Assembly (NCBI GenBank): GCA_033238685.1
Contig: BRZM01000010.1
Coordinates: forward strand, 3,885,405 to 3,949,404
Reading direction: 5' to 3'
Source: Lates japonicus
Taxonomy: Eukaryota
DNA: 64,000 nt
Positions 2,991 through 20,112 of this stretch are shown here, piece after piece; position 1 is the stretch's first letter; each line of letters starts with the position of its first letter. The translations under genes and the position numbers were made by a program. Below the pieces are notes generated by a model that made no database searches, had not been told where the DNA came from, and saw only the letters and a program-made list of their open reading frames with translations.

Positions 2991-3074
2991 GTGAGAATAT
3001 TTAAAGCTAACGCAGAGAAGACTCAACTGACTGTGTACAGTATATAAACAGCTCCTATAAAATAACACGTTTTT

Positions 3075-4401: not shown

Positions 4402-4467
4402 AATAATCCATCGGGCCTGGGTGGAATGTTACGGCAGAGCCAAAAAGAGAAAACACCTACGTTCACT
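4402..4467 (+). CDS. Giant APOL-domain gene exon 8 (NNPSGLGGMLRQSQKEKTPTFT; degenerate basic motif)
   Basis: ttgtag|aat...act|gtaagc; 66 nt. Confidence 0.5.
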
Positions 4468-4955
4468 GTAAGCAACACACCTGCAGCTCTCCTCCACTTT
4501 AGCCTAACATGCCAAACTAGCACTTACTGTGCACTTCTTTACCTGATCTCCTTGCACTGAACTGATTTAGAGCTTACTTCACGGTCTCCCACTGCACTGA
4601 AGCGTCTGCCAAACGAGTTAATGTGAATGTCAAAACTGACAGTGCCTCAGCTAAACAGGTTTCTGGAGGCAAACAGGTGTGTGCGGGTGTGTACACATGT
4701 CAAACCTTAGTGTGTATTCAGACATACAATAGGTGTGTGTCTGCATGTTCATGATTCAGTGTTGATGTAATTTGTTCAGTGAATACACAGAGTCTCATAA
4801 TTAAATAGAAGAAAAAAGACACATTAAATAAACACAAAGATAGAAACATATACACAATGTTTTAGACACATGTATAGAGAAGAGCAGAATTAGATTTTTA
4901 CTTTATGCTTTGAAACATCAGTTGTTTAGTCAGTGTTTCCCTGATTTCTTCTCAG

Positions 4956-5033
4956 AGTTATGTGTTTGACGACGGTGACGAACAGGAAAAGCCTGGTGAT
5001 GTCCCAGCCAAACAGGCTCCTGGCAGCAAACCG
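4956..5033 (+). CDS. Giant APOL-domain gene exon 9 (SYVFDDGDEQEKPGDVPAKQAPGSKP)
   Basis: tctcag|agt...ccg|gtgggt; 78 nt. Confidence 0.5.
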
Positions 5034-5112
5034 GTGGGTGTTTCTTTGTATGGTTGCTGTTGTGTGTGCTGACGTTATCAGCCTGTTTTTGACATGTGAC
5101 TGCGGTTGACAG

Positions 5113-5163
5113 GGCGTTCTGAAGGGAATGATGAAAGGTTTGCAATTCAAGTCGTCACCAAAG
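5113..5163 (+). CDS. Giant APOL-domain gene exon 10 (GVLKGMMKGLQFKSSPK; basic-hydrophobic motif)
   Basis: gacag|ggc...aag|gtacga; 51 nt. Confidence 0.5.
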
Positions 5164-5729
5164 GTACGAGGCACCGTCCGGTTTGGTGTTTTCCACTGGT
5201 GGTGGCTGCAGAGTTTCACACTGTCTCCCTGTCCAGTTTAACTTAGACTACACTTGTTGTGGTGATGGTGGTGGTGGTGGTGTCTGTACTGAAACTGCAT
5301 TGTTCTGATTTTAACAGTATTCATATGTATTATCTTTGGTTTAAAAAGACACATTTTGATAAAAGATGCCCAGACTGCCTGGATGGGTCTGCCGTCACTT
5401 CCTGTTATCTCTCTGTTGTCGACAGACTGATAAAGGCATATGTTGCCTATGAAAAAAAAAAGAAAATGTAGAAAAGATTATCTCACTGTCAGTTTGTAAA
5501 ACCTACAACTTTCACAACTTGACGAAGTGGCACAGTGCAGTGTGGTTCACGTGCTGCATCCTTAGGTAATCATGCCTCAAAATCCTGTCTGGTTTTCACA
5601 AAACTGTGTTTTGTTTGGGTTTTTTTTTTTTTTTTGGTTATTTTTTACATCTTGTCGGTTAGAATTTTTTCAATTTAAAGAATTCACATTTATGACTGTT
5701 GTGCTGAAGATTGTTGACTCTTCTCTCAG

Positions 5730-5834
5730 ACCAGCAGAGATCCGAGTCCAGTTCCCAGCACAGAGGAAGGAGTCTCAGATAAGGAACAACCAGCAGAGAA
5801 AAACAAGCAAGAGAAAAATACAGAACCCAAACAG
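5730..5834 (+). CDS. Giant APOL-domain gene exon 11 (TSRDPSPVPSTEEGVSDKEQPAEKNKQEKNTEPKQ)
   Basis: tctctcag|acc...cag|gtaaga; 105 nt. Two frames are open; phase 0 was chosen from the chain. Confidence 0.45.
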
Positions 5835-6120
5835 GTAAGAGATAAGTAACCACATTAAAATGCTAAACTGTGACTGCTCGTGTGAATACGCCAGTTCTGC
5901 TTCTGCTTTTCCAAACAAACAGAATCATTATTGAATCACTGTTTTAGTGTTTAACTGACATAACAACAAAATGGAATTTCATTCTTTTGAAAATCAGGTT
6001 ACATATTCTGTATGCAAATAGAATTGTTCAAAGTTCTCTATTTTTATAAAAGGAAGACTTAAAAGCAGATTGTTTTTTGGGTGGATCAACCTTAGATTTT
6101 TTTCCAACTTGTCTCTTCAG

Positions 6121-6189
6121 GATATAGGAGGTCTGTTCGCTGGGATGTTCCGGAAAACACCCAAAGAGAGATTGTCTCCTCAACTGACG
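6121..6189 (+). CDS. Giant APOL-domain gene exon 12, B-type (DIGGLFAGMFRKTPKERLSPQLT)
   Basis: cttcag|gat...acg|gtaaca; 69 nt. Confidence 0.6.
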
Positions 6190-6294
6190 GTAACATCAAT
6201 AACTCTTTTTTTTTTTTTTCTTTTTAAAAACTGAATTTCCAGTTTTTATCTTTGATCTTACAACCTATGCACTCATTGTTGTGTTCCCTCCCAG

Positions 6295-6360
6295 GTCAGC
6301 AGAGCAGACAGTGATGCTGAAGATGCTGAGGAAGAGGAGAAAACATCTGAACAGTCCCAC
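6295..6360 (+). CDS. Giant APOL-domain gene exon 13, acidic (VSRADSDAEDAEEEEKTSEQSH)
   Basis: cccag|gtc...cac|gtaagt; 66 nt. Confidence 0.6.
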
Positions 6361-6660
6361 GTAAGTCTTAGTGGCATCAGCAAGCAAGTAAACTTGACAT
6401 AAATATACCATTATACAAACAGAATCCACACAGTAAAAGAACTTTAGAGTTTATTTCAGTGTAAGATTAAAGAGTAAAATAGCTGCCAAGAATTTGCTTT
6501 TTGTGTTTGAAAAGCTCAATTTTTTATGTAAAATTAGTATTGGCTTGAAGGATATGCAACAAATATGTAAAAAGATCCACATATTTAATTCTGTGTTTAA
6601 TTGTTATTTTCAAAGAGTTTGAACTGTACTGTACTTCAAAAACACATTTCTTTTCTACAG

Positions 6661-6729
6661 GAAAAAGGAGGCTTCTTCTCTGGTGTCCTTAAAAAATCCA
6701 GCAAACCAGCAGATGAAACACCTGCACAG
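6661..6729 (+). CDS. Giant APOL-domain gene exon 14, B-type (EKGGFFSGVLKKSSKPADETPAQ)
   Basis: ctacag|gaa...cag|gtgagc; 69 nt. Confidence 0.65.
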
Positions 6730-6754
6730 GTGAGCTGGCAAAAATGATTTTCTG

Positions 6755-6895
6755 CAGCCAGAAGGCAGTTAGCTTACCTCAGCATAGAGACTGAAAACAA
6801 GGAGAAACAGCTAACCTGGCTATAGCTTTGGATAGAGCAGGGGATTTTGATATATTTTACTGTCATCTGGTAAAGCTTTTGTCATTTGTTTTCCA
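6755..6895. repeat. Dispersed fish interspersed repeat, copy A (in an intron of the giant gene)
   Basis: gcagttagcttacctcagcatagagactgaaaacaaggagaaacagctaacctggctatagctttggatagagcagg is about 75% identical to copy B at 46390-46600. Confidence 0.5.
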
Positions 6896-6925
6896 CTTTT
6901 CCAACATATTACCTTGATACTTCAG

Positions 6926-6991
6926 GAGAATCTGAGTGCCTGCAGCAAGCTGTCGGCCAGCAGTGACAGTCTGTCTGAGAACAGCAAAAAG
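6926..6991 (+). CDS. Giant APOL-domain gene exon 15, A-type (ENLSACSKLSASSDSLSENSKK)
   Basis: cttcag|gag...aag|gtgagc; 66 nt. Confidence 0.65.
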
Positions 6992-7175
6992 GTGAGCAGC
7001 TTTCAGTCACAGTATCTGCTATGAGAGCAGCAGAGATAACCTTATCTTTAATCACAGTGTACACACAGACTTAAAGTAGATTTTCCTGCAACAAAAGTAC
7101 GTCATTGACCTGTCTTTGATCCGAATAAAAATCCCATAACTGACCATGTGTGCACCATTTTTCTGTCTGTGTTAG

Positions 7176-7247
7176 GAAAAAGGAGGAATATTCAGTGGGA
7201 TGTTCAGGAAGTCTCCAAAACCAACAGATGCTCCTCAGACTGACGAG
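7176..7247 (+). CDS. Giant APOL-domain gene exon 16, B-type (EKGGIFSGMFRKSPKPTDAPQTDE)
   Basis: gttag|gaa...gag|gtgacg; 72 nt. Confidence 0.65.
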
Positions 7248-7410
7248 GTGACGTAGATGGAAAACAGCTGTAACATGCCAGTCAATGTGCTATGACACAA
7301 GATGGCAGATCTATTGTGCAACTCCTCAAACGAAGCCAACAAGGTCATATCATTAGTTTAATCCTGCAGCCTGATAATCACATTGAACTCGTTCACATTT
7401 TGTGTTTCAG

Positions 7411-7473
7411 GACCAACAGTCTCTGCATGATGATCTGTCAGGCAGTAATGATAATCTGTCTGAAAATTCAAAG
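7411..7473 (+). CDS. Giant APOL-domain gene exon 17, A-type (DQQSLHDDLSGSNDNLSENSK)
   Basis: tgtttcag|gac...aag|gtgagc; 63 nt. Confidence 0.65.
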
Positions 7474-7586
7474 GTGAGCTCAGACGTATTCAGCTATGAA
7501 ATGACAGGATTATGATGCAGTGTTACCATTATTGCCGTTACGTAACAGCAGCTGATGGTGTGAATTAATTGTTCTGACATCACCAG

Positions 7587-7649
7587 GAAAAGGGAGGATT
7601 TTTCGGCGTGATTCTCAGAAAATCTCCAAAGATTCCTGAAGAGGGGCAG
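7587..7649 (+). CDS. Giant APOL-domain gene exon 18, B-type (EKGGFFGVILRKSPKIPEEGQ)
   Basis: caccag|gaa...cag|gtaatg; 63 nt. Confidence 0.65.
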
Positions 7650-8145
7650 GTAATGTGTGAGCAAGTGAAATTTTAACATAGCTAAGATTCTCCTCCACAG
7701 ATTTTAGAAACACTAATAGTCACCAGAAATGTGTGATAGTGGTAGTCTGCTCAAACTTCCTTGTTAACTGGAATAAACTATGGTTCAACATATTAAAGAG
7801 CAGATAAACGCATTTAAGTGGAGTTCAGAGTGTGAATATGTTGGAGAGTAAATTAAAGGATTAGAATGAACAAAGTCAAGATTACAATGACCAAGTGATA
7901 AATGGTGAAACTAAAAGTCAATAGGTTTTGCTGCCAGAAAAGCCAGTTTGTCTGTTAAAGTGTCTTTTTGAACAATAAACTGAAACCCTGTCTGGTCACC
8001 TAATGTTTGCTTTTCTGTTTAAAAAGGTGAATTCTGAATCCTAAAAGAAACTTGGACAGATGAGGCATTTTGACACTTTGCTTTTCTGACATTTTACCAA
8101 GAGCTTAAAATAGGACACATCAATATTGGTCACCTCAGACACTTT

Positions 8146-8170
8146 TATTATTATTATTATTATTATTATT
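8146..8170. repeat. (TTA)n microsatellite
   Basis: direct. Confidence 0.9.
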
Positions 8171-8480
8171 AGTTGCTGTTACACACAGGACTTTTAATCT
8201 CAGATGCTCTTTGGTCCAAAATGTATAAAATTCTGTTAATTTGTTGACAAAATTAGTAATTTTTATGATAGTATTGCATCTTGACACTTTTATTATCTTT
8301 GTATCATGTTTGTTCGTATTATGTTCCTAAATTACCAATAAGCTGCTTGTAAATGTAGGTTCTGCAGTGATGAGGTTTTTGCCTCTACCTGTTTGTTTCT
8401 GTAGGTGGTTTCATGTCTGCATGTAAGCGGCATGAGTGTTCATGTTCAGACAGGTCGAGTCACATTTTTGTTGTGTTCAG

Positions 8481-8540
8481 GTCTCAGAGTCGTTGCACGG
8501 TGAATTCTCTGCCAGCACTGACTGCCTAATGGAGAACAAG
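8481..8540 (+). CDS. Giant APOL-domain gene exon 19, A-type (VSESLHGEFSASTDCLMENK)
   Basis: tgttcag|gtc...aag|gtttgt; 60 nt. Confidence 0.6.
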
Positions 8541-8720
8541 GTTTGTTTTCATGACAGATTTGACAGTCCCCCCCCCCGCACACCCACTGAAACTGCATGA
8601 GTCACCATGATGAGCATGGAAACATGAGTTAATGTGCCTGTAGCTCTGTAGGAGGAAGATAAGGTTCCTAAGACCTGTTTTAATTTAGGAAATTTAATAT
8701 GTTTTCTCTTCTCCCTGTAG

Positions 8721-8777
8721 GAGAAAGGTGGTTTGTTCAGTGGACTCCTCAGAAAGACGCCCAAAACAACTGGAGAG
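8721..8777 (+). CDS. Giant APOL-domain gene exon 20, B-type (EKGGLFSGLLRKTPKTTGE)
   Basis: ccctgtag|gag...gag|gtacag; 57 nt. Confidence 0.65.
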
Positions 8778-9992
8778 GTACAGCTTCTCAAACAGTGTAG
8801 CGTAGTTTCCATGGAGACACTCTGAGCAGACCCATAAACACTGTCTAATCTTTAAAATGAAAAAAACTGTTGCTTTATTGTGCTCAAGACACTGGGTGTG
8901 CTCCATGAACCCAACTGGCAAAATGCTCTGTGTTTGTGCTGGATGGGTGTGGTTTTCCCTCCACATGCCATGAGACCCAGCAGACTTTAAAGGTGCTATA
9001 TGTATGTTTTTGCTCTCGCTGTATAACCAACATTATCATTAACAGCTGTTTACTTACCAGTCTAAAGGAAATGTTACAAGTTCAGCATCAAACTTCATTC
9101 CTTTACTTGCTAAGAGCTGTGTCCATCAGTGGAAAGTAACAGCAATATTAACTCTTGTTTTGCCTCAATTTCTATCACTTATTTTAGCATGCTAACCAGT
9201 TAGCTCCTGCCCATCTTGTCTCATAATACCACTTGTGAGTCACTGTAGCGTCCAGTCTGCCTTTAGTCCAACATGACGAGATGAAGTTGCGCTATCATGT
9301 CATCTATCACATGATCATAGATATCATATATGCAAAACACTACAGTCATCTTTTTTTTCCAAATACTGTTTACAAAATATCATTGTCCTTAGTGGTGCTG
9401 GATTACCAACCAGGCAAAGCAGGCAACTGCCCAGGGGCCCCAGAAGCTCCGAGCTGAGCATACATGGTCTTTTGTTGTGGAGATCATGGCAGCACATGAG
9501 GCAGTTCAAGTGCCTGTTGTTTATACTTGTTCCAAAAGTTCAAAATAGATTTTTAAAAATGAAAAACCACATGTTACCAACAGGATTGTCCCGACTAATG
9601 AAATCCTTTTACACACAGTTTGTCATGACTGAATCCTAATTAAAATGATCCTGTTGTGTCTGACAAGCTATAAAAAGATGCAATCAAAGATTACCGCAGC
9701 ATCTTTATTACCTGCTGCTGTTTTATTATCAGCTCATAGAGACTCAGAATCATACCTACCATGTTACGTGCCAACTGGTTTCCCTGTCCTTCCCATGAGT
9801 ATGACTAAATGGAGCACAGCCAGTGTGACACATGTTCCTCATATGTCCACCAATGTTTTCAAATGCTGCACCCAGGAAGAGGAGAAAATAAATCATGACA
9901 GACAAATATTTAAGCACATTTCCTTTTCATTTATCCCCTTCTACCATTTCCTGTTGGATTGTTTTTCCTGACAGTTTTGATTGTTGTTTCAG

Positions 9993-10064
9993 GAGAATCT
10001 GTCAGCACAGAAAAAAGATCTTTCAGCCAGTAATGACAGTCTGTCTGAGGCCGCCAACACCAAG
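9993..10064 (+). CDS. Giant APOL-domain gene exon 21, A-type (ENLSAQKKDLSASNDSLSEAANTK)
   Basis: tgtttcag|gag...aag|gtcagt; 72 nt; frame confirmed against ORF 9981..10247. Confidence 0.65.
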
Positions 10065-10425
10065 GTCAGTTTGGTCATAAGAATGCTCTCTAGAGTCTCA
10101 TTTTTAAAAGATCAACATCAATCATTATCAAATCAAATACATGAATATTCCCCGGGAGCTAACAATGAAACAATGCAGCTCAAAGAGTCAATCCTTTGGG
10201 GAATCATGTTTATTGCTTATAAAAGTTGGACTTATGACTGGAGTTGAAATGCGTAGTCACAGAAATTTATTCTGCAACTACTATTAAAGTAATAGTTTAA
10301 GTTCTATTTCAAGCAAAAAGGCCAAAAATTTCTCTGTTATCTGTCTCTGTTTCTGTTGTATTTTGTTTGGAAGAAGTAATGTGTATATATAGAATTTTGA
10401 AAAACCTGTGTACCTGACATTTCAG

Positions 10426-10497
10426 GAGAAGGGAGGTGCGTTCAGTGGAATGTTCAAGAAGTCGTCCAAACTTGCAGATGGTCCTCCCACTGAGGAG
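10426..10497 (+). CDS. Giant APOL-domain gene exon 22, B-type (EKGGAFSGMFKKSSKLADGPPTEE)
   Basis: tttcag|gag...gag|gtaaga; 72 nt. Confidence 0.65.
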
Positions 10498-10564
10498 GTA
10501 AGAAGTGTCTCCTCTGTTTTCTGGTTCTGTCCAGTCACTCAGTAGTGTTGTTGAAAGCTGCATG

Positions 10565-10700
10565 TCGGCAAAACATCAGGGTAGACTTGTGACTAGAAGG
10601 TTGCCGGTTTGAATCCCAGGGCCAACATAAAAAACATCATGTAAATAAATGCAAGGAACCCTGAGGAAAGTTCCAGGCTAGAATCCAACCAGAGACAGTG
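10565..10700. mobile_element. tRNA-derived SINE-like fragment (ggtagacttgtgactagaaggttgccggtttgaatcccagggcc)
   Basis: B-box-like GGTT..G(A/T)TCC motif in the context typical of fish tRNA-derived SINEs; lies within an intron. Confidence 0.35.
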
Positions 10701-11005
10701 TAGTTATGTGGTATGCATCTCAACTGCTTGTCTGGTGAATGCCTGAAAAACAGGATTTGCTATGTGAATAAATATCTCTGCTCTTTTCCCTATGAAATGT
10801 TGTTTTATAAAAGCTGTTAGATGTTAGTGGATGTGGCTCATATTTAAAACTTGGCCAAACTTTTATTATAAAACACTGTGGGAAATGCTGGGAGTAAATA
10901 CAGTTCATATCCTGAGTATTTAACAGTGAGATGCCCTGAAGCTGAGGTGAATGTAAAAAGACCTCTAATGTGAAACAGGTTCTAATTAACTTTTTCTTTT
11001 TTCAG

Positions 11006-11071
11006 GAAAAACAGATGCAAGACGATGAGCGGCCAGGCAGCAGTGAAGGTCTGTCTGAAAACAACACCAAG
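11006..11071 (+). CDS. Giant APOL-domain gene exon 23, A-type (EKQMQDDERPGSSEGLSENNTK)
   Basis: ttttcag|gaa...aag|gtgaga; 66 nt. Confidence 0.65.
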
Positions 11072-11148
11072 GTGAGATTTTTTAATAGCATCATTTGAAA
11101 ACAATCCTGTTTAACTTCTATTTCTTTAAGAGACAGTGCTCATGTTTC

Positions 11149-11174
11149 GTGTGTGTCTGTGTGTGTGTGTGTGT
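11149..11174. repeat. (TG)13 directly abutting the 3' splice site of exon 24 of the giant gene
   Basis: gtgtgtgtgtgtgtgtgtgtgtgtttcag|gaaaaagg. Confidence 0.9.
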
Positions 11175-11179
11175 TTCAG

Positions 11180-11248
11180 GAAAAAGGACTATTTAGTGGA
11201 ATATTCAAAAAGTCGCACAAACCGGCAGAAGCTGCTCAACCTGAGGAG
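11180..11248 (+). CDS. Giant APOL-domain gene exon 24, B-type (EKGLFSGIFKKSHKPAEAAQPEE); acceptor directly preceded by (TG)13
   Basis: gtgtgtgtgtttcag|gaa...gag|gtaact; 69 nt. Confidence 0.65.
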
Positions 11249-11826
11249 GTAACTGTATGAATCATTTTTCAAAATACTGACCTTTATCCAGCTCTTAACC
11301 TGCTTTGCTTTATTGTGTTTCCATGTTTCCATTTCCAAACATTTATGATACCTTTTTATATTGTAAAGCCTCATGACCTCCATTAAGAGCACTGTGTTTT
11401 TTCACCAGAGGCTGTTTGAAATTTGACTCATTTTCAATGTAATTTTGTGGGAAATTCAGAATAACAATGTACAAGTGATCAGTTGTTGGTGCAGATTAAC
11501 TCTGTCTTTTAAAAGCATTCTTAACATTGTACATTTTTTTTTAACTATTTCCCTATTTTCCTCACAAAACATTGCACTGAATGATTGCCTGTTACTGTGT
11601 TTATACTGATGCAGATCTGTACACAGATATAGATTTGGTGTAGATTCAAGTTTCAAAACATTTTCTACAATTAAAGAAACAAATATCTGTTGAAACTATG
11701 ACACATTACAATTATTTTTATTAAGTTTTATTAGGAAAAAAATGTCTGAATTTATCTGCAATCTTTTAAAACTTTTCAGAGGATAAACTGTTAATGCAGC
11801 TTCACTTACAACTTTGTCTTTTACAG

Positions 11827-11886
11827 AATGAGTCTTCTGAGAATGAGCTCTCAGCCAGTAATGAAAATTTGGCAGAGAACAAACAG
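11827..11886 (+). CDS. Giant APOL-domain gene exon 25, A-type (NESSENELSASNENLAENKQ)
   Basis: ttacag|aat...cag|gtcagt; 60 nt. Confidence 0.6.
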
Positions 11887-12004
11887 GTCAGTGAGTTTAA
11901 ATCAGTGCTGTTTAGTGGCTTTTCAGTGAACCAGTTTCATTTATAAATATTTCAGCACTGGTCCCATCTCAGCCCTAAAACCTTTTCTTGTGTCTTTCCA
12001 TCAG

Positions 12005-12109
12005 GAGAAAGGTGCGGGGCTGTTCAGTGGACTCCTCAAAAAGACTCCGAAAGCGTCAGGAGAAGAAGGTGGTGAATCTGCCTGTGGTTCAAACTCTTTC
12101 ATTTCTCAG
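12005..12109 (+). CDS. Giant APOL-domain gene exon 26, extended B-type (EKGAGLFSGLLKKTPKASGEEGGESACGSNSFISQ); donor choice uncertain
   Basis: catcag|gag... A nearer gtggtg at 12069 would break the frame (64 nt). The strong donor cag|gtgggc at 12110 gives 105 nt with an open frame. The exon could also be skipped without frame loss. Confidence 0.4.
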
Positions 12110-12986
12110 GTGGGCCGACACTGACGACCTGTCTGGAAATTTCTTCACAAGGTGGCGGTGTAATGCAACAAAAACTTTGTGATAAATGTCTCGGAGGAAC
12201 GTTCACTAACACCACATTATTTTTTAGGAGAAATGTTTCCAACCTTATGTTTAAAACAGCAGAAAGCCAGCAGAGAACAGCTGAAAAGTACTGTGATTGA
12301 ACAAGGCGTTATTGTTCTGCCGGAGAATGAATACTGATACTAACATTTGTTCTTTTCTGGTTTGAATTCAGGGCAGGAAAACGGTGAAAATCAGTTATCT
12401 GGCAGCTAGAATCAGATGACACCGTTGTGAAGATTGCCTATCTACAAAGGCACTTTTTCTTCTCTTTGTTTTTTTGGTCAATGGCTACTTTTGTCCTTCA
12501 TTAACATAGACGACAGATCAGTCAAATCAGATTTTTATGAGATAGTACTGTGGGTTTTACATTGTAAAGTTCTTATACGTGCATTGTACTCAGGTTTGTG
12601 ATAATTCTTTGACAAGACACAAGTACTTTCCAAAGTTAAAATTTGATATAAATAAAATTTAAAAAACAATGTTAAACCAAAGTATGCAAAAGGCAGGTTT
12701 AAGATAGTAATATACATCTTGGAATAAGCCTTCACTGAAGTAATATCTAATATATTCTTGACGGTTGTGGCAGGGACTCTGTGTTGTTGGGTTAAATGGC
12801 ATTTTTGTTGAAGGGCTGTGTTAAATTTATATTCCTTAACATTAAGCTTCAGCATTTAGATTTCACTTTTTGGTCATTTCTCTCTTTGCTGTTATTTTCT
12901 GTCTCTTTTTGGTTGTTTTGAGTCTTTTCTCGGGTCCCCTGACCTCCTCATTAATCCATCCATGCATCTGTGTTTTTTCTTGTCAG

Positions 12987-13055
12987 GAGAAAGGACTGTT
13001 CAGTGGCCTTAAGAAGAAAACACCCAAAGCGTCTGGAGATGATGCAGCTGCAGAG
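12987..13055 (+). CDS. Giant APOL-domain gene exon 27, B-type (EKGLFSGLKKKTPKASGDDAAAE)
   Basis: tgtcag|gag...gag|gtgagt; 69 nt; frame anchored by ORF 12870..13082. Confidence 0.65.
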
Positions 13056-13155
13056 GTGAGTGCTCGGCTAGTTTTATGCTAACACTGTTAGCATCTTAGT
13101 CTATGGTAACTGTTGCACATATGAACTTAATGTACATTCTTTATTCTTTTTTCAG

Positions 13156-13212
13156 GACAAAGACGAGCTGTTTGCAAGTGACGAGAGTCTGTCTGAGAAC
13201 ACTAACACCAAG
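13156..13212 (+). CDS. Giant APOL-domain gene exon 28, A-type (DKDELFASDESLSENTNTK)
   Basis: tttcag|gac...aag|gtactg; 57 nt. Confidence 0.65.
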
Positions 13213-13472
13213 GTACTGAGTTGAGAAATGTCAGCACTATAAACTGTGTGCAACACAACTACTCCTGTGCATTTGAAAACTGAACAGTATTTCAAATATG
13301 TTAAGTTTGTGGTGAATTTTTTTTCTCATTCATCCTTTACAAACTGTACAAATATAAAATGTATCATTTCTAATTAGTACATTGCATTTATGGGGATTCA
13401 AAAATATATATTATGTCTCTGGAAACCAAACGTTGTCTCTCCTTCATTCAGTTCCTGCATTTCTGTTTTTAG

Positions 13473-13538
13473 GAGAAAAGTATTTTCAGCGGGATGTTTA
13501 AGAAGACTCATAAACCAGCAGAGGGGACGACAGATGAG
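13473..13538 (+). CDS. Giant APOL-domain gene exon 29, B-type (EKSIFSGMFKKTHKPAEGTTDE)
   Basis: ttttag|gag...gag|gtgcag; 66 nt. Confidence 0.65.
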
Positions 13539-13639
13539 GTGCAGTAATAACATTTACATAAAGTTGACATTGCATTACACACATTTGACTATTTTGTATT
13601 CGTCTTCATTTTTTATGTTTTATTTTCATGTGTTTTCAG

Positions 13640-13711
13640 GAATCAAACGCAGGCAATTCTAAGAAATTATCTGCCAGTTGTGAGAATCTGTTGGAGGCAA
13701 ACGCATCAAAG
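13640..13711 (+). CDS. Giant APOL-domain gene exon 30, A-type (ESNAGNSKKLSASCENLLEANASK)
   Basis: ttttcag|gaa...aag|gtacaa; 72 nt. Confidence 0.65.
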
Positions 13712-13808
13712 GTACAAATGTTGTCTGATGATCACAACTTTAGTCTGTTTCTTTCTCTTCTGTTATTGATTGTTGATTATTAATGTGTAAATGTTTCATC
13801 TGTTTCAG

Positions 13809-13880
13809 GAGAAGACAGGAGGATTTGCAGGGATCTTCAAAAAGTCTCCCAAACCAGCTCCACGCTCTGTTGTTACTAAG
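13809..13880 (+). CDS. Giant APOL-domain gene exon 31, B-type (EKTGGFAGIFKKSPKPAPRSVVTK)
   Basis: tgtttcag|gag...aag|gtgact; 72 nt. Confidence 0.65.
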
Positions 13881-14039
13881 GTGACTAAATAAACTGATTT
13901 GGGTTTTTCGATGTGTAAAGTTATCAGCTGTTTAGATGTCTGTGAAACCTCTTATTTACATTTTTAAGAGAATCATATTATGGCAAATTCTCCATAAATA
14001 ACCCTCAACAAACCTGACTGCTGACAAACTGTTCTCCAG

Positions 14040-14102
14040 GATCCACTCATTAACTCAGAGGAACTGTCCGCCAGCTGGGACAGTCTCGCAGACGCTGCTG
14101 AG
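14040..14102 (+). CDS. Giant APOL-domain gene exon 32, A-type (DPLINSEELSASWDSLADAAE)
   Basis: tctccag|gat...gag|gtgagc; 63 nt. Confidence 0.6.
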
Positions 14103-14608
14103 GTGAGCGCAAGTCTGTGGATACACTTAACAACATGTTAATACTGTACGTTTATACTGTAGGCAACAGTACCAATAAATGTTAATCAGAATATTTTGTT
14201 GCCTACAAAACATTTGAGTAACACAATGGTAAGTATTTAAACAAAAGGCTACATTTGACTACATGTCTGAGGAAAGGGAATCTCAGAAGACTAGAAGTAA
14301 CTGTATGGAGCCTTCCTTTCTCCAGATTGTCTGCCAGCGAACATTTAGAATAGATTTTCAGCATCAGCATTTGCTGTTTTATACAGAGGCCCATTTCTGT
14401 CACTGTGATGGGAAGTTGTCATAATAAGAAACTCTCTCAAGATAGTGATTCAGTAAGTCACTTACAGGATCTTTGTTTTCATCACATTGGCAGAAATGCA
14501 CTTCCAGTTTTTAGATTTTTAACCCTCACTTTACTTTGTACTTTGTGGCCTGGTTATGAGAAGGTTCCCAGTCAGTGATAAATAACTTTTGATTGCATTT
14601 TTTTAAAG

Positions 14609-14680
14609 GAGGATCTGTCAGCACACGGTGAATTGTCTGCCAGTACTGAAAACCTTTGTGAAGCTACAAGCACCGCAAAG
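14609..14680 (+). CDS. Giant APOL-domain gene exon 33, A-type (EDLSAHGELSASTENLCEATSTAK)
   Basis: tttaaag|gag...aag|gtgaga; 72 nt. Confidence 0.6.
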
Positions 14681-14771
14681 GTGAGACTTGCAGAGTGTGT
14701 TAACCTGTTTGATTGACTGAATGAACACCTTTTTGTGACTTATAAATACATCATGTTTTATATTTTTACAG

Positions 14772-14831
14772 GAGAAAAAAGTAGGGTTTGGTGGGATGTT
14801 CAGGAGGACGCCCAAAACTGTGGAACACCAG
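14772..14831 (+). CDS. Giant APOL-domain gene exon 34, B-type (EKKVGFGGMFRRTPKTVEHQ)
   Basis: tttacag|gag...cag|gtgcga; 60 nt. Confidence 0.65.
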
Positions 14832-15168
14832 GTGCGATACTGTCAACACTGGTTTGAGTTGTACAATCAGTATCAGGAAAAGTGTTTTTGTTTCAGATTA
14901 ATTTCCAGTCTGTGCATTTGAGATGACATCAGTGAATAAATTCTCTGTATATAGACAGTATTTTTGAATTTGAATAGCAGGTTTGTGATAATGTGAGATG
15001 TGTTCTTGGATGCATCCATTTTCAAAACAGAAACTATGAAAAAAAAAACACATCAATTCATAACAGTGATAATAAAATTAATGCAAATGGTTCAATGTGA
15101 GCTAGTTAGATGATCACATGTACGTTTCTGTGCAGCTACTAAACAAATATTTTCTCTCTCTGTTGCAG

Positions 15169-15240
15169 GAAAGCGAGGACATGGAGGCACCAGAGGGAGG
15201 TGGGCTGAGACGCAGGAGGACAATCAAGAAGCAAAGACGA
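15169..15240 (+). CDS. Giant APOL-domain gene exon 35 (ESEDMEAPEGGGLRRRRTIKKQRR; basic, NLS-like)
   Basis: gttgcag|gaa...cga|gtgagt; 72 nt. Confidence 0.6.
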
Positions 15241-15472
15241 GTGAGTTGTTGGTCACAGTGGAAAAAAAACATCCAGAGACCTGACAGAAAGTAGCAGCAG
15301 CAAGAATAACATATATTTCAACAGCTGTGTTTCATAACATGAATTTCTACTTCCAATATCAGTGGTCAAGATGAGGGTTTAGCTTTTATCAACAAAAGTT
15401 AGACACATGTTTTCTCTTGTTTCTCCAGAGTTCTTCTCTGACTAATATAAACTTCCTGTTCCTGTTTCTCAG

Positions 15473-15535
15473 GTTGTGTCATTCCGAGTGAAGAAAACTC
15501 TTCCCAAACTACCCAAACTTAATTTATCCTCACAG
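15473..15535 (+). CDS. Giant APOL-domain gene exon 36 (VVSFRVKKTLPKLPKLNLSSQ)
   Basis: tttctcag|gtt...cag|gtgtgt; 63 nt. Confidence 0.6.
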
Positions 15536-15856
15536 GTGTGTACTGATTTCCTGTAGCTGTCCCTCAGTCATAACTCACTGTTTTGCACCCTGCTCCTGTT
15601 CTTTGCATTAGAGATCTGAAATGTAAACTTACAGATATACTGTAGATATAAATATGCTTTTTGTAATTTTTGATTGATTGAAAAGCCTGTGAAAAGTTTT
15701 AAGTTCTTAAAAGTTGACCTGAGTCATTTATTTCAATTTTAATTTATATTCACTTTACTTGTTTACCATAAATGCTTTTATTATTAATGTGCATGAAGTT
15801 CTCAGTTGAGCTTGTTACTCACTTAATGACATGAGTCGTTTTTTTCTCCTGCACAG

Positions 15857-15919
15857 ACTTCTGATAAGATGCCTGTCATAGAGGAGACTGTGGAGCTGCA
15901 GGAGCTGAACCCAGCACAG
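15857..15919 (+). CDS. Giant APOL-domain gene exon 37 (TSDKMPVIEETVELQELNPAQ)
   Basis: gcacag|act...cag|gttagc; 63 nt. Confidence 0.6.
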
Positions 15920-16551
15920 GTTAGCATTAGGATATTATAAAGTAGACACCCAGAAAAAAACATTTTTCTGGGACTCACAAATGTTGAGCCAAGCCCATCT
16001 ATTCAATATCATATCCCTTATAAACATACAGCATGACATTTCATGGATTGTTTATCTAGTTGGTTTTGCAGCTGTGAAATGAAAAATGAATGTTAGGGTT
16101 CAGTTGACAAAATAAAATCTGTTACATGAACGAATTAAGTAACTCTAAATAGAACTGGAACAAGTGAGAGACTCAGAAACACTTGAAGAAAGTGAGGACA
16201 AAGAATAATAAAATGACAGTAAGTGCATGCATTTAGATATAAATATATATTTGCATGCACATGAAATCATAATTGCAGCATATCTTTACCTGATATGTGT
16301 GATAATGATTACAGTGTCATTTAATTGTGCATTTTGTTTGTGAAACACAGTGTTAGTTGTCACTCTATGTCTGCAGCCTGTGAAGATCAGCTAGCATTCA
16401 GCGAGTTAGCTGTTTAGCTGTTAGCTGTTTACCATAAAGTCATGTTAGTGTGTGTTAAAGTGGGAGTATGTCATCTGTACAGAACCTTACAGATGTTACA
16501 GCTGAACTTTATTGTGTTAAAGGTTGTGTTATTATTGTGTCTGTTTTCCAG

Positions 16552-16626
16552 GAGGGCACAGTGGAGGTCCAGCCTGTAGAGATGGCAGCTTACCCAACTG
16601 AAGATAACCCTCTTGAATATGAGCAG
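16552..16626 (+). CDS. Giant APOL-domain gene exon 38 (EGTVEVQPVEMAAYPTEDNPLEYEQ); donor followed by (TG)14
   Basis: ttttccag|gag...cag|gtgtgt; 75 nt; frame anchored by ORF 16468..16680. Confidence 0.65.
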
Positions 16627-16640
16627 GTGTGTTTCAGTAC

Positions 16641-16643
<3 letters not shown>

Positions 16644-16672
<29 letters not shown>
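16644..16672. repeat. (TG)14 starting 18 nt downstream of the exon 38 donor
   Basis: direct. Confidence 0.9.
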
Positions 16673-16675
<3 letters not shown>

Positions 16676-16734
16676 ACTAAATATATGCAAGGAAATAAGT
16701 TGACTCTTCACAAACAAATGTCTTTTGTTTTCAG

Positions 16735-16774
16735 GAAACTGATGAACTGATGGAGTGGTGGAACTCTGTAAAAG
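16735..16774 (+). CDS. Giant APOL-domain gene exon 39 (ETDELMEWWNSVK, ends phase 1)
   Basis: ttttcag|gaa...aaag|gttagt; 40 nt. Confidence 0.6.
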
Positions 16775-16893
16775 GTTAGTGTGATATTGATGCACATCCA
16801 CCTGTTTGATGTAATACAAAAGACATAAAAGACATTAAAAACAAAACGCTATTATTATTATTTAGAAGTATTATTTCTGCTGCTGGCTTCCAG

Positions 16894-16945
16894 GTTGGAC
16901 TGAGTGGAACGAAACATCCAATTTCCAGGAGGAGGATGAGGAAAC
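16894..16945 (+). CDS. Giant APOL-domain gene exon 40 (GWTEWNETSNFQEEDEET, phase 1 to 2)
   Basis: ttccag|gttgg...gaaac|gtaagc; 52 nt. Restores the frame exactly into the APOL-domain exon. Confidence 0.6.
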
Positions 16946-17261
16946 GTAAGCACAGTTTCTTTGATTCAAATTTTCCCCAGAAAATATTATTTTGCGTTTC
17001 AGGGAATTTATTTTAGGATATTCTCATTATGTAATATCTGTTGATGATTGTTTTCATTATTGATTAATCATTTGGTCGACAAATCATCAGACAAATTCTG
17101 CCACTGAAGAAGCTGGAACCTGAGAATGTAAAAAGTTTCCTCTAAATGAGAAAACAATGATCAAAATATTTGTTATTTTTCTGTCAATTTACTAATCAAT
17201 TAATCAACTTATCATTTCAGTTCTAGTATAGGAAATTGCCATTAGGCCCTTACATCTTTCG

Positions 17262-17280
17262 TCTCTCTCTCTCTCTCTCC
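17262..17280. repeat. (TC)9 forming the polypyrimidine tract of the APOL-core exon acceptor
   Basis: gtctctctctctctctctctccag|ggctatgg. Confidence 0.9.
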
Positions 17281-17282
17281 AG

Positions 17283-17697
17283 GGCTATGGAGCAGGCAGC
17301 TGATCGTGTCTACATGGCAGCTCGCCTCTTCGTGCATCTCTTCAACCAGCGCGGGGCTTCCTTACAACACCGCATCCTGGAGCTTTTGACCCTGGCCGAC
17401 GCTGCGGATCAATTCCACAAGAAAACGGTGACGGCTGCTGTGGGTGGAGGGGTGGCCAGTGTTGCAGGCAGCGTGGCTACAATCACAGGGCTCATTCTGG
17501 CACCTTTCACTTTCGGTGCCTCTATTATTGTCACGGCGGTGGGGATCGGTGTGGCGACGGCAGGCAGCATCACCTCAGCAACGGCTAATATCACAGACAC
17601 AGTTCACTCCAACATGGACAGGAAGAAAGTGGAGAAGATGATCCAGGGCTACCAGGATGAGATCAAAGACATCAGGGAGTGTTTGGAGTTCATGCAG
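17283..17697 (+). CDS. Giant APOL-domain gene exon 41: APOL core (MEQAADRVYMAARLFVHLFNQRG...Gly/Ala-rich transmembrane hairpin ...ILAPFTFGASIIVTAVGIGVATAG...DIRECLEFMQ)
   Basis: (TC)n-ag|ggctatgg...atgcag|gtgagg; 415 nt. Matches six-frame ORF 17236..17718. Homologous to the human APOL1 hairpin GLAPFTEGGSLVLLEPGMELGITAALTGI and the following KLKEVREFL region. Confidence 0.85.
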
Positions 17698-18378
17698 GTG
17701 AGGACATGTTTGACTTGAGTTTGTGCTTTAGAAATTGAGAATAATCTCACACAGGCTTTGCAGCTGTGTCACAAATTTCTCCACTGATGCCCGCATTCAG
17801 GTCTGGGTCGAGTAGTAATGCAAAAATAGATAAACGAGTTACCCTAAAAAAGTAGGTGTTGTGTAGATTAGGGCAGAATCTACCAGTTATTTTATTTCAC
17901 AGATAATTTGGCAATTATTTTTACAATTAGTCCATTTCATTTTTAGTCTAAAATGTCTAATACTCAAAAATTACCATCACAAGATGAACACCTAAGTCTA
18001 GGCCTTATCATCCCCACTGGTTTTCATCAATGTTTTTATTGGTATACTGGTATTAAATTGCATTCTATGTGGTATTAAAAAAGCCTTAAATTTAACTTGG
18101 TGAGCCCTGCAAAAATTGTTACTGTAATATAGCAGAATCAGGGGTTTCTTTCAGGTATTTCCATCCTAAAATACTTCTGTATGGTTGGTGTTATTTTTTT
18201 CCACCTCAACGATGGTTCACTATAACAAATATGAAAGAATAAAATCAGAATTTTAGGGTATACATTTTGATTTTTAAATTACACTTCATGTATGGTGAGA
18301 AAACCTTTGAAAAGAATGATTATAATGTCTTTCTGAGACGGTATTTAACATCCTTTCCTGTCTCTGTGCCTCCTGTAG

Positions 18379-20112
18379 GAAGGTATGGACACCCTGCAGG
18401 AGTGGGACTTTGAGAAATACTCTCAGAGTGCTGCCAAAAAGGCCCTGAACCACAACATTAAACATGTGGTGAAGGAGGGTGGCCGTGCTGGGAAAGCCCT
18501 GATGATCAACACTGACAAACTCATCAGCACCGTGCAGGTTCTGGGTGCTGCAGGCGGTGCCGCCAAAGCCGCCCAGGCCATCAGCGTCACCACAGGGGTC
18601 ATGTCGGCCCTCTTCCTGGCTCTGGATGTCTTCTTCCTCGCCAAAGATTCCCACGAGCTCCACAAAGGCGCCAAAACCAAATTCGCCACCAAGATCAGGG
18701 AGGTGTGTAAAGACCTTCAAGACGGTCTCCTGGAGCTGAACAAGGTGAAGACGCAGCTGCAGAAAACCATGGACGGCATCGAGGTGGAGGAGTATGAGGA
18801 GATCGAGGAGGTGGAGGTGGAGGTCGAAGATGACTTGGAGTCTGATCCTAAGAAGCTGGCCGAGCTGGAGCAGGAGCTAGACCTCCTGGAGGAGAAACTG
18901 GACAAAAAGATTGAGGAAGAGCAGAAGAAGAATAAAGAGATGGAGGGAGAAAATCAGAAAAGTAAGAAAGAGACAAAGGAGGAGAAGAGCATGAAGGAGA
19001 AAGGAGATGCAGAGAAACAGAAGGAGGACGAGGAGAAAATGGGAGAAAATGATGCAAAGAAAGAGGGAAAGAAGGAGAGTAAGAAGGAAAAAGACAAAGG
19101 AGAAAGCAAATTTGAGTCTGCATTAGAGAAACTACCTGAGGAGGAAAGAGAGCAGAATAAGGAGAAAACTGGCAAAGCAGCTAAAGAGGAAGTTTTAAAA
19201 GAACAATCTCAGAAAGGAAGCAAAAAAGACAAAGAAACTGAGAACCGCATTACTGCTGGGAAAGAAAAACACGAGAGCAAGCGAGACAAGGCAAAGACAG
19301 ATGAAAAACAGAAGAAGGTGGATGCAGAAGAACAGGAGGAACCTGCGAGTAAATCGGGTGACACAAAACAAGGAAGGCCGAGGTCAGAACGGGTCAAAAC
19401 CGAGAGTCAAAGAAGCAAGAGCAGCAGAGAGGATGAAAGAGGAGTAAAGCATGAGTGGAAATCAGTGACTAAAGAGAAAGAGGTGGAAAGTGGGAGTGTG
19501 AGGAGGCACAGCAGCAGGAGTGAGCATGACAGAGAAAGAGGGGGTAAACATGAAATGAGAGAAACTGATAAGGAGAGACTCCCTAGAAAAGAAAGTGACA
19601 GGACAGAGAGCCGGAGGAGGACAGAGGAGGAGAGAGGAGTAAAAGACTGGAGAGCTGAGATGGCAAAAAGTAGAGAGCAGAGGAAAGAAAGTAAAGAGGG
19701 AAGAGAATCCAAGAGAGAGACAGAGAGAGGGACGAAACAAGACAGTCACAGAAAAAGCGACGTGAGGAGAGAGTCACATCGAAGTCATGAGATGGGGACG
19801 AGGAGGGAGAGAGAGTGGGGGAGCAGCAGGGAGGAGTCAGACTCACAGAGGAGTCACCACAGGAGAGGAACGGCCCCGCATGACGAGAAACGGGGGAGCA
19901 GGCTTGAGAGTGCGAGGAGGCAGTTTGAAAAAGCAGGGGGTGAGGAGGCAGATGAGGAGGAGGAGAGGAGAAGGAGGAGGGAGGATGGAGGGGGTAGTCG
20001 GAGGAGGGACAAGGATAGGAGAGGAAGCGACCGAGACAGAGAGCACGAACACAGCCACAGAGGATCTCGATCTGGATCCAGCGCTCTGCTGGAAGACGGA
20101 CTGTACATTTAG
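18379..20112 (+). CDS. Giant APOL-domain gene terminal coding exon: APOL C-terminal (SRA-interacting-like) region, ...MSALFLALDVFFLAKDSHELHKGAKTKFATKIRE..., then an acidic EEVEVEVEDD segment, a K/E-rich coiled-coil-like segment and an R/E/S/D-rich (RS/RD/RE-like) tail; stop TAG 20110-20112
   Basis: tcctgtag|gaaggtATG...; in frame with ORF 18385..20112 (575 aa). Matches the APOL1 C-terminus [35 protein letters not shown]. Confidence 0.85.
   Translation, partial: EGMDTLQEWDFEKYSQSAAKKALNHNIKHVVKEGGRAGKALMINTDKLISTVQVLGAAGGAAKAAQAISVTTGVMSALFLALDVFFLAKDSHELHKGAKTKFATKIREVCKDLQDGLLELNKVKTQLQKTMDGIEVEEYEEIEEVEVEVEDDLESDPKKLAELEQELDLLEEKLDKKIEEEQKKNKEMEGENQKSKKETKEEKSMKEKGDAEKQKEDEEKMGENDAKKEGKKESKKEKDKGESKFESALEKLPEEEREQNKEKTGKAAKEEVLKEQSQKGSKKDKETENRITAGKEKHESKRDKAKTDEKQKKVDAEEQEEPASKSGDTKQGRPRSERVKTESQRSKSSREDERGVKHEWKSVTKEKEVESGSVRRHSSRSEHDRERGGKHEMRETDKERLPRKESDRTESRRRTEEERGVKDWRAEMAKSREQRKESKEGRESKRETERGTKQDSHRKSDVRRESHRSHEMGTRREREWGSSREESDSQRSHHRRGTAPHDEKRGSRLESARRQFEKAGGEEADEEEERRRRREDGGGSRRRDKDRRGSDRDREHEHSHRGSRSGSSALLEDGLYI

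What the first reader, a model, noticed from the sequence alone, without database searches (positions are those of the whole stretch)
11149..17283. Dinucleotide microsatellites sit exactly on splice sites of the giant gene (TG-tract at a 3' splice site, TG-tract after a donor, CT-tract as polypyrimidine tract)
(TG)13TTTCAG immediately precedes exon 24 (11180). This is the same configuration as the CFTR exon 9 (TG)m(T)n tract, where TDP-43 binding to UG repeats promotes exon skipping. (TG)14 begins 18 nt after the exon 38 donor (16627). (TC)9 supplies the polypyrimidine tract for the APOL-core exon (17283) and is a PTB-type binding sequence. Length polymorphism at these loci could modulate inclusion of symmetric repeat exons or of the APOL domain itself.
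Basis: partly seen in the sequence, partly recalled or inferred. Interest (0 to 1): 0.5.

Follow-up and report, generated by a model that had tools for sequence, protein, structure and literature searches.

The report
Fish intron microsatellites beside splice sites
Three short two-letter DNA repeats really do sit right beside three splice sites of a fish apolipoprotein-L-type gene, but they look like recent, species-specific expansions of repeat-prone splice-signal sequence, a commonplace feature of fish introns with no evidence here of regulating splicing.

Summary
An interrupted (TG)12-13 tract (11149-11174) abuts TTCAG and a 69-nt exon at 11180. A perfect (TG)14 (16644-16671) starts at intron position +18 after the donor at 16627. 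A perfect (TC)9 (17262-17279) plus CAG precedes the ApoL-core exon at 17283. The gene is a teleost apold1a-type gene. Homologous proteins and a spliced RNA contig from a relative confirm the two 3'-end sites; the exon-24 acceptor is supported less directly. Under uniform placement in the 31 introns, all three tracts lying within 17 nt of a site has P about 0.001 (post hoc). There is an ordinary explanation. Repeat seeds (TGTG, TCTC) are 2-3 times denser next to splice sites in the other 28 introns, two of the introns are only 108 nt, and GT repeats just upstream of 3' splice sites are a published genome-wide trait of fish. Orthologues show lineage-specific expansion: Scomber has only (TG)3TTTCAG at the exon-24 acceptor, (TC)9 is absent from all five orthologues, and the donor-side TG tract is shared only with Scomber. 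No AC partner or bridging hairpin exists. Skipping the core exon would frameshift. TDP-43- or PTB-type tuning is plausible by analogy but untested. This is an ordinary new instance of a known kind and of low interest.

The parts
11006..11071 (+). A-type repeat mini-exon (66 nt, EKQMQDDERPGSSEGLSENNTK) upstream of the TG-bearing intron
   Evidence: Open, phase 0-0, acceptor/donor scores 8.3/10.6. Orthologue in Scomber at L001 2900-2953.
11072..11179 (+). 108-nt intron that ends in the TG tract. The best branch-point candidate is CTCAT, with the A at 11142, 38 nt from the exon.
   Evidence: Alignable with the Scomber orthologous intron (A3). The RNA fold is no more stable than shuffles (z = +1.33).
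11149..11174 (+). Interrupted TG microsatellite, G(TG)3TC(TG)8T. It occupies the usual polypyrimidine-tract position and is followed by TTCAG.
   Evidence: Scomber has only (TG)3 at this position.
11180..11248 (+). 'Exon 24': B-type repeat mini-exon, 69 nt, EKGLFSGIFKKSHKPAEAAQPEE
   Evidence: Orthologue at L001 3046-3117. Absent from the cichlid locus L010 and from the Perca model P0122.
16552..16626 (+). 'Exon 38': 75 nt, EGTVEVQPVEMAAYPTEDNPLEYEQ
   Evidence: Contiguous with the next exon in homologous proteins and in the spliced RNA contig L009.
16627..16734 (+). 108-nt intron with donor GTGTGT. It carries the (TG)14 tract. Branch-point candidates are TTGAC and TTCAC, 32 and 25 nt from the next exon.
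   Evidence: Fold z = +0.36.
16644..16671 (+). Perfect (TG)14, starting at intron position +18
   Evidence: Scomber has (TG)11 from +4, followed by TTAG and then a further TG-rich run, at the same place (L001 10240-10261). The cichlid has only degenerate TG-rich sequence. Crenichthys, Ilyodon and Misgurnus have none.
16735..16774 (+). Exon 39 (40 nt, ETDELMEWWNSVK-)
16894..16945 (+). Exon 40 (52 nt, -WTEWNETSNFQEEDEE-)
17262..17279 (+). Perfect (TC)9 that forms the polypyrimidine tract. The upstream branch-point candidate is CTTAC (A at 17252), and CAG lies downstream.
   Evidence: It gives the highest acceptor score in the gene (13.9). There is no TC repeat at this acceptor in Scomber, Crenichthys, Ilyodon, Misgurnus or Pelmatolapia.
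17283..17697 (+). ApoL-core exon (415 nt; begins with the third base of a codon)
   Evidence: Pfam ApoL E = 1e-22. Boundaries from L009. Skipping it frameshifts.
18379..20109 (+). Last coding exon: end of the ApoL domain plus a long E/K/R-rich tail
   Evidence: Pfam ApoL E = 4e-09..

Best explanation
These are ordinary teleost intronic microsatellites. They arose by replication slippage from the short proto-repeats that splice signals themselves contain. The acceptor motif TGTGTTTCAG seeded the exon-24 tract, the GTGTGT donor seeded the (TG)14 tract, and a CU-rich polypyrimidine tract seeded (TC)9. All three expanded in the window's own lineage.

They lie next to splice sites for three reasons. 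That is where the seeds are. Two of the introns are only 108 nt long. And fish spliceosomes tolerate GT-rich 3' ends and use them widely.

In function, (TC)9 is simply a strong polypyrimidine tract between branch point and AG. The (TG)n at exon 24 replaces most of the polypyrimidine tract. The (TG)14 lies just beyond the U1 footprint of the donor. Any effect on exon inclusion is a by-product of tract length and not an evolved switch.

Shown here: positions, splice junctions, seed enrichment, lineage specificity, and the absence of a bridging structure. Inferred: the slippage origin and the neutrality or tolerance of the tracts.
For: - The tracts and junctions are verified.
- The orthologous Scomber intron aligns along its length (77% mean column identity, short gaps apart) but carries only (TG)3TTTCAG where the window has 26 nt of TG.
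- (TC)9 is absent from all five orthologous acceptors, which have ordinary mixed pyrimidine tracts.
- The donor-side TG tract is present in Scomber, degenerate in the cichlid, and absent from three others and from the paralogues.
- In the other 28 introns, TG/GT 4-mers occur at 24-29 per kb in the first and last 40 nt against 13.5 per kb in the interior. TC/CT 4-mers occur at 23 per kb at acceptors against 8 per kb in the interior.
- Several sibling acceptors read ..TGTGTTTCAG or ..TGTTTCAG.
- Literature: GT repeats peak immediately upstream of 3' splice sites in zebrafish and other fish and promote accurate constitutive splicing. Simple repeats mutate about 10,000 times faster than other kinds of mutation (PMC4691745).
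- Every homologous protein or transcript inspected that spans exon 38 and the core exon includes both.
Against: - Uniform-placement P is about 0.001 for all three tracts hugging splice sites. That is stronger than the 2-3-fold seed enrichment alone predicts, although the statistic is post hoc and n = 3.
- The donor-side TG tract persists in two lineages, with a decayed trace in a third. This could reflect constraint.
- Lin et al. note that even functional repeat introns are poorly conserved between fish orthologues, so non-conservation is weak evidence for neutrality.
- A UG run of at least 8 followed by U3 is expected to bind TDP-43/CELF proteins and to bind U2AF65 poorly, judging from mammalian data.
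Confidence: 0.66

Rival explanations
1. The tracts are length-tunable splicing regulators. UG repeats at the exon-24 3' splice site recruit TDP-43 or CELF2, displace U2AF and promote in-frame skipping. UG repeats after the exon-38 donor modulate inclusion of that exon. The CU tract recruits PTB to repress the ApoL-core exon.
For: - The layout matches CFTR (TG)m(T)n: a (UG)8 perfect run within 12-13 units, then only U3 before CAG, filling the branch-point-to-AG interval.
- TDP-43 binds runs of at least 6 UG, and U2AF65 barely binds U3 (PMC2978352).
- In humans, tandem repeats associated with splicing are most enriched for TARDBP sites (PMC10078293).
- Exons 24 and 38 are symmetric.
- The exon-24 acceptor scores below the gene's median (3.0).
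- Relatives of this gene family are annotated with many isoforms (up to X13), and exon content differs among species models.
Against: - No skipping evidence exists for these exons. Every inspected homologue that spans exon 38 and the core exon includes both.
- (TC)9 gives the best acceptor in the gene, and skipping the 415-nt core exon frameshifts.
- The tracts are lineage-specific.
- Ten other acceptors in the gene score even lower without any microsatellite.
- In fish, GT repeats at 3' splice sites are common and linked to efficient splicing.
Confidence: 0.2
2. The TG tracts belong to the teleost (AC)m-(GT)n class of introns. In that class, complementary repeats at the two ends of an intron pair up to form a bridging hairpin that replaces U2AF2.
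For: Tract 1 is a GT-type repeat immediately upstream of a 3' splice site in a teleost intron. That is the position of the genome-wide GT peak described by Lin et al..
Against: - There is no AC/CA run of 6 or more units anywhere in the gene, and none in either 108-nt intron.
- The predicted folds are no more stable than dinucleotide shuffles (z = +1.33 and +0.36), and the TG tracts do not pair across the intron.
- Tract 2 sits at the 5' end of its intron, where that class carries AC and not GT.
Confidence: 0.03
3. The (UG)14 run, and possibly the interrupted exon-24 run, folds into a pUG-fold quadruplex in the pre-mRNA and acts through a pUG-binding factor.
For: [quoted passage not shown] Fish introns hold thousands of perfect pUG sequences (PMC12962679). 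No complementary CA tract competes for pairing here.
Against: No splicing role of pUG folds at splice sites is established in the text consulted. The fold cannot be predicted with the tools used. The tract is absent from most orthologues.
Confidence: 0.06

Closest known systems
CFTR intron 8 (TG)m(T)n polymorphic 3' splice-site tract, which causes TDP-43/CELF2-mediated exon 9 skipping. The human APOA2 (GT)16 3' splice site is a second example.
   Same: A UG dinucleotide repeat of more than 6 units lies directly upstream of a very short U run and the AG, between branch point and acceptor, in front of a short exon.
   Different: - The setting is a teleost, not a mammal.
- The U run is only 3 nt.
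- The tract has a TC interruption.
- Skipping would be in-frame and remove one of many similar repeat units, which is probably harmless.
- No binding, polymorphism or skipping data exist.
- The orthologue has only (TG)3.
Teleost (AC)m-(GT)n structured, U2AF2-independent introns (Lin et al. 2016, PMC4691745)
   Same: Both are fish introns with a GT repeat abutting the 3' splice site and obscuring the polypyrimidine tract. In both, the repeats are poorly conserved among orthologous introns.
   Different: There is no complementary AC repeat and no stable bridging hairpin. The second tract is GT, not AC, at the 5' end of its intron.
Human splicing-associated tandem repeats (spl-TRs; Hamanaka et al. 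2023, PMC10078293)
   Same: Both are intronic short tandem repeats near splice sites, GT repeats included, whose length can correlate with use of the flanking exon. TARDBP is the top associated RNA-binding protein.
   Different: Those are defined by a measured association between repeat length and splicing in a population. No such data exist here.
CU-rich polypyrimidine tracts bound by PTBP1 (established knowledge, not tested here)
   Same: (UC)9 contains repeated CUCUCU/UCUC motifs between the branch point and the AG.
   Different: It scores as a strong constitutive acceptor. The downstream exon is 415 nt, encodes the conserved ApoL core, and is included in every inspected homologue that spans it.

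Membership tests
CFTR-type (TG)m(T)n 3' splice-site silencer | UG repeat of at least 6 units immediately upstream of the polypyrimidine/U run and the AG | tested here: met
   G(TG)3TC(TG)8T + TTCAG at 11149-11179. The perfect run is (TG)8.
CFTR-type (TG)m(T)n 3' splice-site silencer | Short U run (5 or fewer) that limits U2AF65 binding | tested here: met
   Only UUU precedes CAG. U2AF65 barely binds U3 in vitro (PMC2978352).
CFTR-type (TG)m(T)n 3' splice-site silencer | Binding of TDP-43 or CELF2 to the tract | not testable with these tools
   Needs CLIP or a gel-shift assay with the fish proteins.
CFTR-type (TG)m(T)n 3' splice-site silencer | Partial skipping of the downstream exon that depends on tract length, with length polymorphism in the population | not testable with these tools
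   No RNA-seq or resequencing data for the source species were available. Between species the length differs ((TG)3 in Scomber against 12-13 units here). The exon is missing from the cichlid locus and from the Perca model.
Teleost (AC)m-(GT)n bridging introns | GT repeat within 200 nt of the 3' splice site | tested here: met
   Tract 1 ends 5 nt from the exon. Tract 2 lies 63 nt from its 3' splice site but is positioned at the 5' end of the intron.
Teleost (AC)m-(GT)n bridging introns | Complementary AC repeat near the 5' splice site of the same intron | tested here: not met
   No AC/CA run of 6 or more units in window positions 1-20,000. None is visible in either intron.
Teleost (AC)m-(GT)n bridging introns | Intron folds much more stably than shuffled controls, with the two ends paired | tested here: not met
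   MFE -13.7 and -16.3 kcal/mol, z = +1.33 and +0.36. 185 and 128 of 200 shuffles fold at least as well.
PTB-repressed alternative exon | CU-rich tract with UCUU/CUCUCU motifs at the 3' splice site | tested here: met
   (TC)9 at 17262-17279.
PTB-repressed alternative exon | The downstream exon is an alternative cassette | tested here: not met
   The exon is 415 nt, and skipping it frameshifts to a stop after 22 codons. Every inspected homologous protein that spans it and the spliced contig L009 include it. This is indirect, because there are no transcript data from the source species.
pUG-fold RNA | About 12 guanosines in a UG-repeat register | tested here: met
   (UG)14 at 16644-16671. The exon-24 tract has 12 G but carries a UC interruption, so it is inconclusive.
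pUG-fold RNA | Actual quadruplex formation and a dependent function | not testable with these tools
   ViennaRNA does not model the pUG fold. Biophysical measurement is needed.
ApoL family gene (context) | Pfam ApoL domain above the gathering score | tested here: met
   81.4 and 36.8 bits against a cut-off of 25.9. Top homologues are named apold1a or si:rp71-1g18.13.

The most novel reading that the evidence does not exclude
The TG-rich element just downstream of the exon-38 donor is an old percomorph feature. It is a full microsatellite in the window species and in Scomber, and it survives as a decayed trace in a cichlid. Together with the expanded UG tract that replaces the polypyrimidine tract of exon 24, it would work as a fast-mutating, heritable 'rheostat'. 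Acting through TDP-43/CELF proteins or a pUG fold, this would tune which symmetric mini-exons enter the N-terminal repeat array of an ApoL-family protein, giving individuals different isoform repertoires.
Probability: 0.07. Interest if true: 0.45.

Novelty: new member of a known kind. Interest (0 to 1): 0.15.

Why it matters
If the tracts did tune exon inclusion, this would be a non-mammalian example of splicing controlled by microsatellite length, in a gene built from many interchangeable in-frame mini-exons. That is a natural substrate for rapid isoform variation. As the evidence stands, the value of the finding is mostly cautionary. In teleost genomes, dinucleotide repeats beside splice sites are expected. 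GT repeats at 3' splice sites are a published genome-wide feature, splice signals seed slippage, and introns are short. Mammalian disease analogies such as CFTR exon 9 should therefore not be read into them without transcript or population data.

Tried and rejected
- Bridging-hairpin model. I folded both 108-nt introns. Neither is more stable than shuffles and neither has an AC partner. Rejected.
- Known structured RNAs. An Rfam scan of the whole window at gathering thresholds gave 0 matches.
- Orthologue look-ups. P0010 (Boleophthalmus) and P0014 (Triplophysa) were not on record.
- Loci L003-L006 (Xenentodon, Poecilia formosa, Nematolebias, Neosynchiropus). These turned out to be a paralogue (the VEEAADRVF type, lacking the exon 36-38 equivalents), so I used them only as negative paralogue controls.
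- The goodeid assemblies L002 and L007 are low quality or carry a SINE-like insertion at exon 38. Only the downstream part of that intron could be compared.
- L010 was fetched with only 3 kb of flank, so the upstream half of the cichlid repeat array was not covered.
- A literature search for 'apold1a' found nothing.
- The first exon finder, with strict acceptor thresholds, missed exon 24 itself because the TG tract scores poorly as a pyrimidine tract. Relaxing the thresholds recovered it.
- I did not determine the source species.
My model has fewer upstream exons, and the two long introns (7650-8720 and 8778-9992) may hide more.

Full report
**What is there**

The window is teleost genomic DNA (39% G+C). 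On the + strand it carries a large ApoL-family gene.
- The exon starting at 17283 matches Pfam ApoL at E = 1e-22, and the last exon (18379-20109) matches at E = 4e-09.
- The closest proteins are fish 'apolipoprotein L domain containing 1a' / si:rp71-1g18.13, at 89-94% identity over the domain.
- Upstream of the domain lies an array of small, symmetric (phase 0-0) exons of two alternating kinds. A-type exons read ..LSASxxSLSENxxK. B-type exons read EKGGxFSGxFKKSPKPA... The array spans about 6121-14831 and is followed by five short linker exons.

**The observation**

- 11149-11174 is G(TG)3-TC-(TG)8-T, followed by TTCAG and the 69-nt B-type exon at 11180. It has 13 units with one interruption, and the longest perfect run is (TG)8.
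- 16644-16671 is a perfect (TG)14 that starts at intron position +18 after the donor GAGCAG|GTGTGT at 16627.
- 17262-17279 is a perfect (TC)9, followed by CAG and the ApoL-core exon at 17283.

The splice sites are real.
- Homologous proteins, including transcriptome-derived Nothobranchius sequences, read straight through ex38|ex39|ex40|core.
- L009, a spliced RNA-seq contig from a relative (88% nt identity), aligns to the window in blocks that break at or within a few bases of those boundaries.
- The exon-24 acceptor is conserved as TTTCAG|GAAAAAGG in Scomber japonicus.

**Is it more than chance?**

The 64-kb window has only eight perfect dinucleotide runs of 8 or more units. Three lie in this gene, and all three are within 17 nt of a splice site. 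With 31 introns totalling 10,960 nt, uniform random placement gives P = 0.0012 for that outcome. The figure is nominal because the threshold was chosen after seeing the data.

The uniform null is also the wrong one, for three reasons.
- Two of the tracts lie in introns of only 108 nt.
- In the other 28 introns, the short seeds from which microsatellites grow are concentrated beside splice sites. TG/GT tetramers occur at 24-29 per kb in the first and last 40 nt against 13.5 per kb in the interior. TC/CT tetramers occur at 23 per kb at acceptors against 8 per kb in the interior. Several sibling acceptors read ..TGTGTTTCAG.
- Lin et al. 2016 (PMC4691745) showed that GT repeats peak immediately upstream of 3' splice sites across zebrafish and other fish genomes, and earlier screens had found the same enrichment.

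**Comparison with orthologues**

I fetched true orthologous loci from Scomber japonicus (L001), Crenichthys baileyi (L002), Ilyodon furcidens (L007), Misgurnus anguillicaudatus (L008) and Pelmatolapia mariae (L010). Four further loci proved to be paralogues.
- Exon-24 acceptor. The Scomber intron aligns along its length (77% mean column identity, short gaps apart) but has only ..GAGACTGTGTGTTTCAG, that is (TG)3. The window tract is therefore an in-place expansion of an ancestral seed. In the cichlid locus and in the Perca gene model, the exon-24 orthologue is absent altogether.
- Donor-side tract. Scomber has (TG)11 from +4, followed by TTAG and a further TG-rich run, at the same place, ending in the same TTTTA(C/T)TA as the window. 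The cichlid has only degenerate TG-rich sequence. The two goodeids, the loach and the paralogues have none.
- (TC)9. None of the five orthologues has it. They have ordinary mixed pyrimidine tracts.

One caveat applies. Lin et al. state that even functional repeat introns are poorly conserved between fish orthologues because simple repeats mutate about 10,000 times faster than other kinds of mutation. Non-conservation therefore argues only weakly against function.

**Mechanistic tests that could be run**

- The fish-specific (AC)m-(GT)n bridging mechanism does not apply. There is no AC run in the gene. Both 108-nt introns fold no better than dinucleotide shuffles (z = +1.33 and +0.36), and the TG tracts do not pair across the intron.
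- The exon-24 acceptor scores 3.0 on a simple pyrimidine-tract matrix. That is below the gene's median, but ten other acceptors score lower without any microsatellite.
- The best branch-point candidate (CTCAT, A at 11142) lies 38 nt from the exon. The TG tract fills the whole branch-point-to-AG interval and leaves only UUU before CAG. By mammalian data this should bind TDP-43/CELF2 (which need at least 6 UG) and bind U2AF65 poorly (which needs at least 5 U) (PMC2978352).
- The (TC)9 acceptor is the strongest in the gene (13.9). It shows the textbook order of branch point (CTTAC, A at 17252), pyrimidine tract, then AG.
- Skipping exon 24 (69 nt) or exon 38 (75 nt) keeps the reading frame. Skipping the 415-nt core exon shifts the frame to a stop after 22 codons, so it is not a clean 'domain cassette'.
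- Retaining either 108-nt intron meets an in-frame stop.
- No Rfam family matches anywhere in the window.

**Best explanation (confidence about 0.66)**

These are lineage-specific slippage expansions of repeat-prone splice-signal sequence in short fish introns. (TC)9 serves as a good polypyrimidine tract. The two TG tracts are tolerated by a splicing system in which GT-rich intron ends are commonplace. Positions, junctions, seed enrichment, lineage specificity and the absence of a bridging structure are shown. Slippage origin and near-neutrality are inferred.

**Rivals**

I would put the chance that tract length has a measurable effect on exon-24 inclusion at about one in three. No evidence obtained here supports this model. 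Human catalogues show the principle is real, with TARDBP as the top factor (PMC10078293).
- The (AC)m-(GT)n structural class was tested and its defining features were not met (0.03).
- A pUG-fold quadruplex in the (UG)14 run is possible on sequence grounds (PMC12962679) but cannot be tested here (0.06).

**Novelty and verdict**

Dinucleotide repeats abutting splice sites are a described phenomenon in humans (CFTR, APOA2, splicing-associated tandem repeats) and a genome-wide property of fish introns. This is a new but ordinary instance, and interest is low (0.15).

The one element worth a second look is the donor-side TG tract. It is shared with a distantly related percomorph and leaves a decayed trace in a cichlid. 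The decisive data are junction counts and tract genotypes from the source species, plus minigenes that swap the (TG)12 tract for the Scomber-like (TG)3.

Noticed in passing
window 6121-14831 (context 3445-20109): The apold1a-type gene carries an N-terminal array of alternating symmetric mini-exons. A-type exons read ..LSASxxSLSENxxK and B-type exons read EKGGxFSGxFKKSPKPA.., each 57-105 nt and all phase 0-0. The array is colinear exon by exon with Scomber (L001). Exon content differs among species models, and cypriniform orthologues have only one such unit.
   Followed up: partly
window 11072-11179 and 16627-16734: Both TG-bearing introns are exactly 108 nt long. Each contains an in-frame stop, so intron retention would truncate the protein.
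   Followed up: partly
window 11149-11174 and 16644-16671; L001 142-181 and 10240-10261; L010 2077-2098: Every TG/CA-type dinucleotide run of 8 or more units inside this gene and its orthologues is TG on the sense strand and never CA (5 of 5). The Scomber (TG)20 and the cichlid (TG)11 lie 84 and 215 nt upstream of an exon, so neither abuts a splice site.
   Followed up: partly
L007 (Ilyodon furcidens) 200-330: A tRNA-derived SINE-like sequence (..GGGAGTCGAACCCAGGACC..GCGCCACCGTGCAGCCC) sits where the exon-38 orthologue and its donor should be. It is either a real insertion or an assembly artefact.
   Followed up: no
window 18780-20109: The last exon continues for about 440 codons beyond the ApoL domain as an E/K/R/S-rich low-complexity tail containing GAG-type trinucleotide repeats. 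Orthologues have similar tails.
   Followed up: no
L003 1-5333, L004 1-1005, L006 194-2755, L008 1-1816: A second ApoL-domain gene lies a few to about 9 kb upstream of the apold1a-like gene, or of its paralogue, in several fishes. The family is therefore tandemly arranged.
   Followed up: no
window 34089-34547 (- strand); 35463-35548: An RRM-domain exon (hnRNP C/RALY-like, Pfam RRM_1 E = 1.6e-13) lies on the minus strand. About 900 nt upstream of it in transcript sense sit (CA)9 and (AC)10 runs, which read as TG/GT on that strand.
   Followed up: no
window 47333-47371: An imperfect (TG)19 tract with a TGTGTGTGCGTGCA period of 14 lies in a region with no gene assignment.
   Followed up: no
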